The notes under the pieces are model-generated. The model was given only the letters and a program-made list of their open reading frames with translations. It did no database searches and was not told the origin of the DNA. The translations under genes were made by a program, and so were the position numbers. Below, in pieces: positions 1 through 198 of a stretch of DNA of 7,438 nt. This stretch comes from a virus (taxonomy: Monodnaviria > Loebvirae > Hofneiviricota > Faserviricetes > Tubulavirales > Inoviridae), in IMG/VR virus record IMGVR_UViG_2645727978_000001. One strand, given 5' to 3'. Every line of letters begins with the position of its first letter. Positions within the stretch are counted from its first letter, which is position 1.

Positions 1-198
1 ATGTCTCACGAGATTGTTTACTACGATTACATTCCTGATTATGGCGTTAATGCCTGCATTGATGGTGAATGGGATTTCTTCAGCTCGTTTAATGAGCTGT
101 TCATTGCATGCGTTGAAACAATCGGGGATGACTTCGTTCTGGTATCTGTTGCACTGCCTTCTGGTTCATGGGTCGGTTATCAGGAGACTGTTTGCTAA
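1..198 (+). CDS. Small, strongly acidic hypothetical protein (65 aa), translationally coupled to the rep gene
   Basis: ORF begins with ATG at window position 1 and ends TAA at 196-198. By my count the product has about 11 Asp/Glu and no Lys/Arg. Its stop overlaps an in-frame ATG of the rep ORF at 198-200 (TAATG). No RBS is visible because the upstream sequence lies outside the window. Confidence 0.4.

What the first reader, a model, noticed from the sequence alone, without database searches (positions are those of the whole stretch)
1..198. Strongly acidic 65-aa protein with no basic residues, translationally coupled to the replication gene
The product ([65 protein letters not shown]) has about 11 Asp/Glu and no Lys/Arg, and is rich in aromatic residues. 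Small, very acidic phage proteins are a recurring signature of DNA mimics and anti-restriction or anti-defense factors (Ocr and ArdA are examples), and of regulators of replication proteins. Its stop overlaps an in-frame rep start codon (TAATG at 196-200), so it is likely co-expressed with rep. Nothing like it exists in the canonical Ff gene set.
Basis: partly seen in the sequence, partly recalled or inferred. Interest (0 to 1): 0.55.

Follow-up and report, generated by a model that had tools for sequence, protein, structure and literature searches.

The report
Small acidic companion gene of phage Rep
This is a real, conserved 65-residue acidic protein gene sitting directly in front of, and overlapping, the replication gene of an E. 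coli filamentous prophage; it belongs to an already catalogued family of unknown function (it includes ORF67 of cholera phage VGJphi), and nothing ties it to DNA mimicry or anti-restriction.

Summary
Window 1-198 encodes a 65-aa protein with 11 Asp/Glu, no Lys/Arg and pI 4.05. Its TAA stop shares one base with the ATG of a Rep_trans replication gene (TAATG, 196-200).

It is not a fragment: an in-frame TAA lies 21 nt upstream in matching genomes.

It is a real gene. dN/dS is 0.08-0.15, it is intact in all 30 E. coli genomes that carry it, and AlphaFold predicts a confident beta-beta-beta-alpha-beta core.

It is not an orphan. It matches phrog_3104 and, by profile comparison, VGJphi ORF67. Homologues abut Rep_trans genes in Vibrio phages (f237/Vf33, fs1, VSK, VEJ, VGJ) and in Enterobacterales prophages. 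CTXphi lacks it.

Acidity is conserved across the family (net -5 to -13). Complete lack of basic residues is not (4 of 56 members).

The gene is inherited with rep, not with the repressor.

My best guess, at about 0.4, is a co-translated protein partner that modulates Rep. There is no sequence or fold support for an Ocr/ArdA-like DNA mimic.

Verdict: a member of a known, uncharacterised family; moderate interest.

The parts
1..198 (+). Small acidic ORF (65 aa plus TAA stop), first cistron of the rightward replication operon. Member of phrog_3104, the VGJphi-ORF67-like family.
   Evidence: sequence and composition. (phrog_3104, E 8.4e-25, full length). (dN/dS 0.08-0.15). (AF2 pLDDT 81; core residues 4-49 about 90). 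(hhalign to the ORF67 family, probability 97.6%).
183..186 (+). GGAG Shine-Dalgarno for rep, embedded in the codons for the conserved C-terminal G-Y-Q/R-E motif of the small ORF.
   Evidence: A GGAG (one lineage has GAGG) lies 6-13 nt before the rep ATG in all diverged lineages listed. This may explain part of the C-terminal conservation.
196..200 (+). TAATG stop/start overlap (TAA 196-198, ATG 198-200), a termination-reinitiation geometry.
   Evidence: Equivalent overlaps of 1-17 nt are present in every homologous locus examined.
198..1394 (+). Replication initiator, 398 aa, Rep_trans family (RstA/Vpf402-like).
   Evidence: PF02486, E 1.8e-21. (phrog_453, E 5.6e-107). (RefSeq 'replication initiation factor domain-containing protein' with the same start).

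Best explanation
SHOWN:
- Window 1-198 is a genuine protein-coding gene. It is the first cistron of the rightward (replication/early) operon of a dif-integrated E. coli inovirus.
- In matching genomes it lies about 30 nt downstream of a sigma-70-like promoter. That promoter is bracketed by two GCGCATGCG palindromes, opposite a divergent 70-aa basic putative repressor. All of this lies outside the window.
- Its stop overlaps the start of a Rep_trans initiator gene.
- It belongs to a conserved family of 60-85-aa acidic proteins (phrog_3104, with sister phrog_2419 = VGJphi ORF67). Apart from one rare GPA-rep hybrid lineage, I found the family only abutting Rep_trans genes of inoviruses of Vibrionaceae and Enterobacterales.

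INFERRED (about 0.4):
- The protein is a dedicated partner of the Rep_trans initiator, made together with it through translational coupling.
- It binds Rep through its aromatic beta-sheet face and the conserved acidic cluster (D9, E23-W24-D25).
- This would restrain or chaperone initiator activity, much as an antitoxin-like or nucleic-acid-mimicking cap on a DNA-binding surface would. It would keep rolling-circle replication of a temperate, non-lytic phage within tolerable limits.
- It cannot bind DNA itself: it has no Lys/Arg.
For: Real gene:
- dN/dS is 0.126 (window vs L008), 0.106 (L017 vs L021) and 0.077 (L025 vs L026).
- The ORF is intact in 30 of 30 E. coli genomes, including one copy that was left unannotated.
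- The AF2 core has pLDDT about 90 with both 8-sequence and 56-sequence alignments.

Link to Rep:
- Every homologue overlaps a rep start by 1-17 nt.
- 22 of 22 evaluable IMG/VR loci whose Rep is at least 44% identical to the window's Rep carry the ORF abutting rep. The f237-like and VGJ-like Rep clades (32-39% identity) also carry it.
- The only two plasmid-database hits are also next to Rep_trans genes.
- Identity of the small protein tracks Rep identity (Spearman 0.67, p 6e-10) but not repressor identity (rho 0.03).
- Small ORFs 85-97% identical to each other and Reps 97-98% identical occur with three repressors that are only 25-35% identical to each other (L017, L019, L021).
- Module seams fall in the first 5-12 codons of the ORF.

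The GPA exception behaves like a decaying copy:
- When the ORF sits in front of an unrelated Phage_GPA initiator (L005), omega rises to 0.3-0.6.
- The near-invariant E23 and D25 are lost.
- An 8-residue insertion and an 11-residue tail appear.
- 50 of 51 E. coli genomes with that GPA rep lack the ORF altogether.

Protein-binder character:
- GRAVY is +0.38, 18% of residues are aromatic, and family net charge is -5 to -13.
Against: - No direct evidence of a Rep interaction. No complex prediction could be run.
- Co-inheritance with rep could be mere physical linkage, since the genes overlap.
- CTXphi-type RstA (21 IMG/VR loci; 78% identical to RstA) works without any such ORF. The protein is therefore not a general requirement of Rep_trans catalysis.
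- The L005 hybrid shows the ORF can travel with the repressor arm and still stay open (omega < 1).
- Rep is only mildly basic (pI 8.3, net +3.5) with no striking basic surface evident from sequence.
- Fold matches are not significant.
Confidence: 0.4

Rival explanations
1. A replication- or early-module accessory that acts on a host factor rather than on Rep. Candidate targets: the helicase used for rolling-circle replication (UvrD/Rep), SSB, XerCD/FtsK at dif, or a stress regulator.
For: The gene has the same tight linkage to the replication module. The hydrophobic and acidic character suits a protein-binding role. The ORF stays open (omega 0.3-0.6, below 1) even when paired with an unrelated GPA initiator. 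CTXphi RstA needs no such partner.
Against: The family spans Vibrio and Enterobacterales hosts with only 30-40% identity, so any host target would have to be highly conserved. Constraint relaxes and the E-W-D motif is lost once the cognate Rep_trans is replaced. 50 of 51 GPA-type prophages in the same host species do without it.
Confidence: 0.2
2. An anti-defence DNA mimic (Ocr/ArdA-like, or a Ugi/p56-like small acidic inhibitor). It would be made first after the ssDNA genome becomes double-stranded and would block restriction or another nucleic-acid-targeting defence.
For: The acidic pI (4.05-4.67) is conserved across the family. The gene is first in the early operon. The size is typical of anti-defence proteins.
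Confidence: 0.1
3. A lysogeny-switch component: an anti-repressor (RstC-like) or Cro-position protein that counteracts the divergently encoded 70-aa repressor.
For: It is the first gene downstream of the operator-flanked promoter, opposite the repressor. In the L005 hybrid it stayed with the repressor arm while rep was exchanged. An acidic protein could bind a basic repressor (pI 9.6).
Against: Near-identical small proteins are paired with three dissimilar repressors, and 99%-identical repressors with small proteins only 54-75% identical. There is no correlation with repressor identity (rho 0.03). In Vibrio the upstream regulators are of other types altogether (DUF3693; VGJphi ORF154/136/58), yet the small ORF persists. 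It has no Lys/Arg, so it cannot act as a Cro-like operator binder.
Confidence: 0.1
4. Mainly a translational-coupling leader. What matters is that ribosomes translate through to the rep start, and the peptide itself has little function.
For: The stop/start overlap is universal, and the rep Shine-Dalgarno sits inside the ORF.
Against: Strong purifying selection acts on the amino-acid sequence (omega about 0.1). A confident fold is predicted. Invariant W24/S29/L33 hold across 30%-identity homologues. RNA around the junction folds no better than shuffled sequence (z +0.35), and rep has its own GGAG. CTXphi and most GPA phages express rep without such a leader.
Confidence: 0.1

Closest known systems
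VGJphi ORF67 and its equivalents in fs1, ND1-fs1, VEJphi, VSK ('orf59') and VP24-2_Ke (phrog_2419)
   Same: A 59-67-aa acidic protein encoded immediately upstream of, and overlapping, a Rep_trans (RstA-like) gene, downstream of divergent regulators. Homology is supported by profile-profile comparison (probability 97.6%, E 4e-12 over 62 columns) and by cross-hits between the two PHROGs. The gene order is the same.
   Different: Only about 26% identity. The E-W-D motif is replaced by (P/V)-W-G-H-R, and the C-terminus differs (LLLKGVFHA). No function is assigned in the records or in the papers I could search.
The unannotated or 'hypothetical' 71-aa ORF upstream of Vpf402/ORF1 in Vibrio parahaemolyticus and V. 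alginolyticus phages f237/VfO3K6, Vf33, Vf12, VfO4K68, VALG_phi6/8 and vB_Vipa (phrog_3104)
   Same: Same PHROG as the window protein. Same position, overlapping rep. Acidic. Shares the Y-Y-D ... E-W-D ... S-x-x-x-L motif.
   Different: About 30% identity. These proteins carry 3-5 basic residues and a different C-terminal third. The ORF is not part of the classical ORF1-10 list of f237.
HicB-type antitoxin N-terminal domain (PDB 3k6q, TTHA1013 1wv8)
   Different: The score is marginal and Foldseek finds nothing significant. There is no sequence similarity and no HicA neighbour. This is a resemblance of shape only.
Ocr (T7 gp0.3) and ArdA DNA mimics
   Same: Acidic; expressed early.
   Different: No sequence or fold similarity. 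Ocr is an all-helical 116-aa dimer and ArdA an elongated protein of about 166 aa (background knowledge). Here the protein is a 65-aa, beta-rich, hydrophobic domain with a lower acidic fraction.
Ff gene X protein and RS1 RstC (small phage-encoded regulators of replication or repression)
   Same: Small accessory proteins of filamentous phages that tune replication (pX) or repression (RstC).
   Different: pX is an in-frame C-terminal product of gene II (background knowledge). This ORF lies upstream, in another frame, and is unrelated to Rep (no phrog_453 hit). RstC lies downstream of rstB in RS1 and targets RstR (background knowledge). Here there is no co-variation with the repressor.

Membership tests
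phrog_3104 / VGJphi-ORF67-like pre-rep small protein family | Full-length sequence match to the family profile | tested here: met
   phrog_3104 E 8.4e-25, residues 1-65 against profile positions 1-69 of 69. hhalign to the ORF67 group gives probability 97.6%.
phrog_3104 / VGJphi-ORF67-like pre-rep small protein family | 60-85 aa, acidic, encoded immediately upstream of and overlapping a Rep_trans gene of an inovirus | tested here: met
   65 aa and pI 4.05. TAATG overlap with a PF02486 gene. Inovirus context: Zot, secretin, DUF2523 and coat B genes.
Ocr-type DNA mimic | Sequence or fold similarity to Ocr; all-helical elongated dimer | tested here: not met
Ocr-type DNA mimic | Binds and inhibits type I restriction-modification enzymes | not testable with these tools
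   Needs a plating or binding experiment.
ArdA anti-restriction | ArdA domain, a three-domain protein of about 165 aa | tested here: not met
   No Pfam hit for the protein or for 56 family members. The length is 65 aa.
HicB antitoxin (N-terminal domain) | HicB-like fold | tested here: inconclusive
HicB antitoxin (N-terminal domain) | Sequence match to HicB families and an adjacent HicA toxin gene | tested here: not met
   No Pfam or PADLOC hit. The neighbours are a repressor and Rep.
Anti-repressor of the cognate phage repressor (RstC-like in function) | Specific pairing and co-variation with its repressor | tested here: not met
   Spearman rho 0.03 against repressor identity, versus 0.67 against Rep identity. 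The same small protein occurs with three dissimilar repressors.
Anti-repressor of the cognate phage repressor (RstC-like in function) | Sequence similarity to RstC | not tested
   No RstC sequence was obtained. No CTXphi/RS1 record appeared among the tblastn hits of family members in the phage collection.
Ff gene X-type replication regulator | In-frame internal translation product of the initiator gene | tested here: not met
   It is a separate ORF in frame 1, upstream of rep in frame 3. It has no similarity to Rep profiles.

The most novel reading that the evidence does not exclude
The family (this protein, the f237/Vf33 ORF and VGJphi ORF67) is a so-far unrecognised class of co-translated governor of Rep_trans rolling-circle initiators. 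It would be an acidic, antitoxin-like cap that sets the replication level of temperate inoviruses, including phages of pandemic V. parahaemolyticus, V. cholerae and ETEC. Loss of this governor in the CTXphi lineage would mark a different control strategy.
Probability: 0.3. Interest if true: 0.6.

Novelty: new member of a known kind. Interest (0 to 1): 0.35.

Why it matters
Replication control in temperate filamentous phages is understood mainly for Ff (pII/pX/pV) and CTXphi (RstA/RstR). Here a small gene is fixed in front of the initiator in most Rep_trans inoviruses of Vibrio and enterobacteria. It has been ignored, and is even unannotated in the f237/Vf33 reference genomes. If it modulates Rep, it is a missing part of how these virulence-associated prophages keep replication non-lethal. 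It would also be a handle for manipulating them. If it does nothing measurable, it is just one more conserved hypothetical. For the scan itself, the lesson is that 'small and acidic' did not translate into any evidence for a DNA mimic.

Tried and rejected
- Longer upstream gene: rejected. An in-frame TAA lies 21 nt upstream in L001.
- Pfam, PADLOC and PDB-sequence searches of the protein and of 56 relatives: nothing.
- RNA structure occluding the rep ribosome-binding site: MFE -30.1 kcal/mol against a shuffle mean of -31.2 (z +0.35). No support.
- Rosetta-stone fusion to Rep: no hit longer than 115 aa in either protein database, apart from one spurious repeat protein, P0011.
- Shared domain between Rep_trans and the GPA initiator of L005 that might explain the shared small ORF: BLASTP finds none.
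- fs2 and typical GPA-type E. coli prophages: no homologue in six-frame HMM scans.
- Charge complementarity with Rep: Rep is only mildly basic, so this is uninformative.
- Literature: no paper mentions the RefSeq accessions, the PHROG or VGJ ORF67. The f237, ND1-fs1 and integration papers do not discuss the ORF. The original VGJphi paper is not held.
- The search for related loci on genome contigs failed for lack of a conserved stretch.
- Surface electrostatics could not be computed because model coordinates are not exposed.

Full report
**What the window is**

The 7438-bp window is most of a filamentous (inovirus) prophage of E. coli plus about 500 bp of host DNA. It encodes:
- a Rep_trans initiator (198-1394; PF02486, E 1.8e-21);
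- a coat-B-like protein, a DUF2523 (pVI-like) protein, a Zot/pI-like protein and a pIV secretin.

It ends at a dif site, 6910-6937, with one mismatch to E. coli dif. Near-identical DNA occurs in 30 of 5426 complete E. coli genomes, always chromosomal, often in tandem copies and next to hipA. ETEC strain E24377A is among them.

The window begins exactly at the ATG of the ORF in question. The prophage's left arm is therefore missing and was read from locus L001.

**Checking the observation**

- The ORF runs 1-198 and gives exactly the quoted 65-aa product: 11 Asp/Glu, 0 Lys/Arg, 1 His, pI 4.05, 18.5% aromatic, GRAVY +0.38.
- TAA 196-198 overlaps ATG 198-200 of rep. RefSeq uses the same rep start.
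- A GGAG for rep sits at 183-186.
- In L001 the frame is closed by a TAA 21 nt upstream, with no alternative start in between. The 'C-terminal fragment' refutation fails.
- Upstream lies a sigma-70-like promoter (TTTACA-18-TATGAT), flanked by two GCGCATGCG palindromes, and a divergent 70-aa basic protein of phrog_2503 that I take to be the repressor.

**Is it a gene?**

Yes.
- Nei-Gojobori dN/dS is 0.126 for window vs L008 (dS 1.36), 0.106 for L017 vs L021 and 0.077 for L025 vs L026.
- All 30 E. coli genomes have it intact. That includes a diverged copy which PGAP left unannotated.
- AlphaFold2 gives the same model from 8 and from 56 sequences. Strands are at 4-11, 15-20 and 23-27, a helix at 30-41 and a strand at 45-49. 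The core pLDDT is about 90 and the C-terminal 50-65 is poorly defined.

**What family?**

Pfam, PADLOC and PDB sequences give nothing.

PHROGs gives phrog_3104 (unknown function) at E 8.4e-25 over the full length.

A word-indexed search found only 7 relatives, and an exhaustive HMM scan of 1.8 billion representatives added 3. A profile of diverged members then retrieved 95 clusters, all 'hypothetical', from:
- Enterobacterales: E. coli, Proteus, Providencia, Photorhabdus, Scandinavium;
- many Vibrio species.

In deposited phage genomes the family is present in the f237/VfO3K6, Vf33/Vf12, VfO4K68, VALG_phi6/8 and vB_Vipa group. It is often unannotated there and is absent from the classical f237 ORF list.

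A sister family, phrog_2419, is VGJphi ORF67 and its equivalents in fs1, ND1-fs1, VEJ, VSK and VP24-2_Ke. Profile-profile comparison supports homology (probability 97.6%, E 4e-12).

Family-wide properties:
- W24, S29 and L33 are invariant.
- Y7, D9, E23 and D25 are nearly invariant.
- Net charge is -5 to -13 (median -8) and pI is 4.05-4.67.
- Only 4 of 56 members lack Lys/Arg.
- Position 28 is Lys/Arg in 75% of members.

Acidity is therefore a family trait, while 'no basic residues' is not.

**Which module does it belong to?**

In every locus examined the ORF overlaps a rep start by 1-17 nt, and the rep SD (GGAG; GAGG in one lineage) lies within its last codons.

Among 80 IMG/VR loci found with a Rep profile:
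- 22 of 22 evaluable loci with Rep at least 44% identical carry it.
- The f237-like and VGJ-like Rep clades carry it.
- 21 loci of the CTXphi RstA type (78% identical to RstA) do not.

These loci are redundant, so the counts are not independent events.

Across 12 lineages, small-protein identity tracks Rep identity (Spearman 0.67, p 6e-10), not repressor identity (rho 0.03).
- L017, L019 and L021 share 85-97% (small ORF) and 97-98% (Rep) identity but have repressors only 25-35% identical.
- The window and L008 have 99% identical repressors but only 75% (small ORF) and 61% (Rep) identity.

Recombination seams lie within the first 5-12 codons of the ORF. The two hits in the plasmid collection are also next to Rep_trans genes.

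**The exception**

In a rare E. coli lineage (L005-L007) an 84-aa homologue with 49% identity precedes an unrelated Phage_GPA initiator.
- The repressor, the intergenic region and the first 12 codons are identical to the window type.
- Homology to other GPA-type prophages begins exactly at the rep start.
- 50 of 51 E. coli genomes with that rep lack the small ORF. Vibrio fs2 lacks it too.
- In this hybrid, omega rises to 0.3-0.6, E23 and D25 are lost, and an insertion and a tail appear.

I read this as relaxed constraint after separation from the cognate Rep_trans. It also shows that the ORF can persist without it.

**Mechanism**

Shown: a conserved, translated-looking first cistron of the rep operon that is coupled to Rep_trans.

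Inferred: a small, hydrophobic-plus-acidic domain with no Lys/Arg cannot bind DNA. It is best explained as a protein-binding subunit. Its obligate pairing, co-inheritance and coupled translation with Rep_trans make Rep the most likely partner. A role as restrainer or chaperone of initiator activity fits a temperate, non-lytic phage. I give this about 0.4.

Evidence against:
- there is no interaction data;
- linkage alone could produce the co-inheritance;
- CTXphi does without the ORF;
- Rep is only mildly basic;

Rivals:
- a host-factor target within replication (0.2);
- an anti-defence DNA mimic (0.1), which has no sequence or fold support, sits in a fixed rather than variable position and is under purifying rather than diversifying selection;
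- an anti-repressor (0.1), which shows no co-variation with the repressor;
- a pure coupling leader (0.1), which is contradicted by omega of about 0.1 and the predicted fold, and by the lack of RNA structure at the junction (z +0.35).

**Comparison with known systems, and novelty**

The gene is a member of an already catalogued but uncharacterised family: phrog_3104, RefSeq WP_000017776.1, and VGJphi ORF67 as a distant relative. It is not a member of the Ocr, ArdA, HicB, RstC or pX families by the features I could test. The searchable literature assigns no function.

The useful new points are:
- the link between the two PHROGs;
- the strict association with Rep_trans, with CTXphi as the exception;
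- the module-seam and relaxed-selection evidence.

Interest is moderate (0.35). It is a testable candidate regulator of inovirus replication, but nothing here is surprising in kind.

Noticed in passing
window 6910-6937 (and 6938-7438): AGTGCGCATAATGTATATTATGTTAAAT is E. coli dif with one mismatch, so it is the prophage's right junction. The last ~500 bp of the window are host DNA. The prophage's left arm (repressor, operators, about 930 bp) lies upstream of the window.
   Followed up: partly
L001 8068-8100 (junction between tandem prophage copies): The site between the two tandem copies reads AGTGCGCATAATGTGACACGCGTTATGTTGAAA. It has dif-like arms, but the centre is much longer than the 6-nt dif spacer. 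This is presumably the phage attP. The integration mechanism (VGJ-type or other) was not examined.
   Followed up: no
window 2478-4019: The pIII-like adsorption protein carries a long (Gly-Thr/Gly-Ser)n linker. Its length differs between otherwise near-identical prophage copies: 513 aa here and 543 aa in L001. The spurious Pfam CFAP143 hit is due to this repeat.
   Followed up: no
L035 1521-2486; L033 1774-2727: Related E. coli inoviruses integrated away from dif carry an IS110-family ('RNA-guided') transposase gene directly upstream of rep or of the small ORF. This suggests an alternative integration module swapped in at the same seam.
   Followed up: no
L001 8651-8863 (-) and 8864-9000: A divergent 70-aa basic protein (phrog_2503, no Pfam hit; looks ribbon-helix-helix-like) lies opposite the small ORF. 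Two GCGCATGCG palindromes 43 bp apart flank a TTTACA-18-TATGAT promoter. Together these look like a compact immunity region, and it is exchanged as a cassette between phages.
   Followed up: partly
L003 6084-6347 (VfO4K68); likewise Vf33, Vf12, VfO3K6: The reference genomes of the f237/Vf33 phage group leave the homologous small ORF unannotated. Family HMM E-value 1.4e-24.
   Followed up: yes
L005 797-1051 and 1044-3044: A rare hybrid prophage has the window-type repressor and operator, a diverged 84-aa small ORF and an fs2/VFJ-like Phage_GPA initiator. One seam lies at codon ~12 of the small ORF and the other exactly at the rep start.
   Followed up: yes
window 2303-2473 and 1404-1739: Two further conserved hypotheticals. 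One is a 56-aa ORF between the coat gene and the pIII-like gene, with no Pfam hit. The other is a 111-aa ORF (phrog_14411, unknown function, no Pfam hit) in the position usually held by the ssDNA-binding/RstB-like gene.
   Followed up: no
L027-L029 (V. cholerae), gene between the DUF3693 repressor and the small ORF: The slot just upstream of the small ORF holds different cargo in different V. cholerae prophages: a 113-aa ORF, a 185-aa RNase_T-like exonuclease or a 145-aa ORF. The small ORF and rep stay constant. VP24-2_Ke likewise has a 3'-5' exonuclease in that slot.
   Followed up: no
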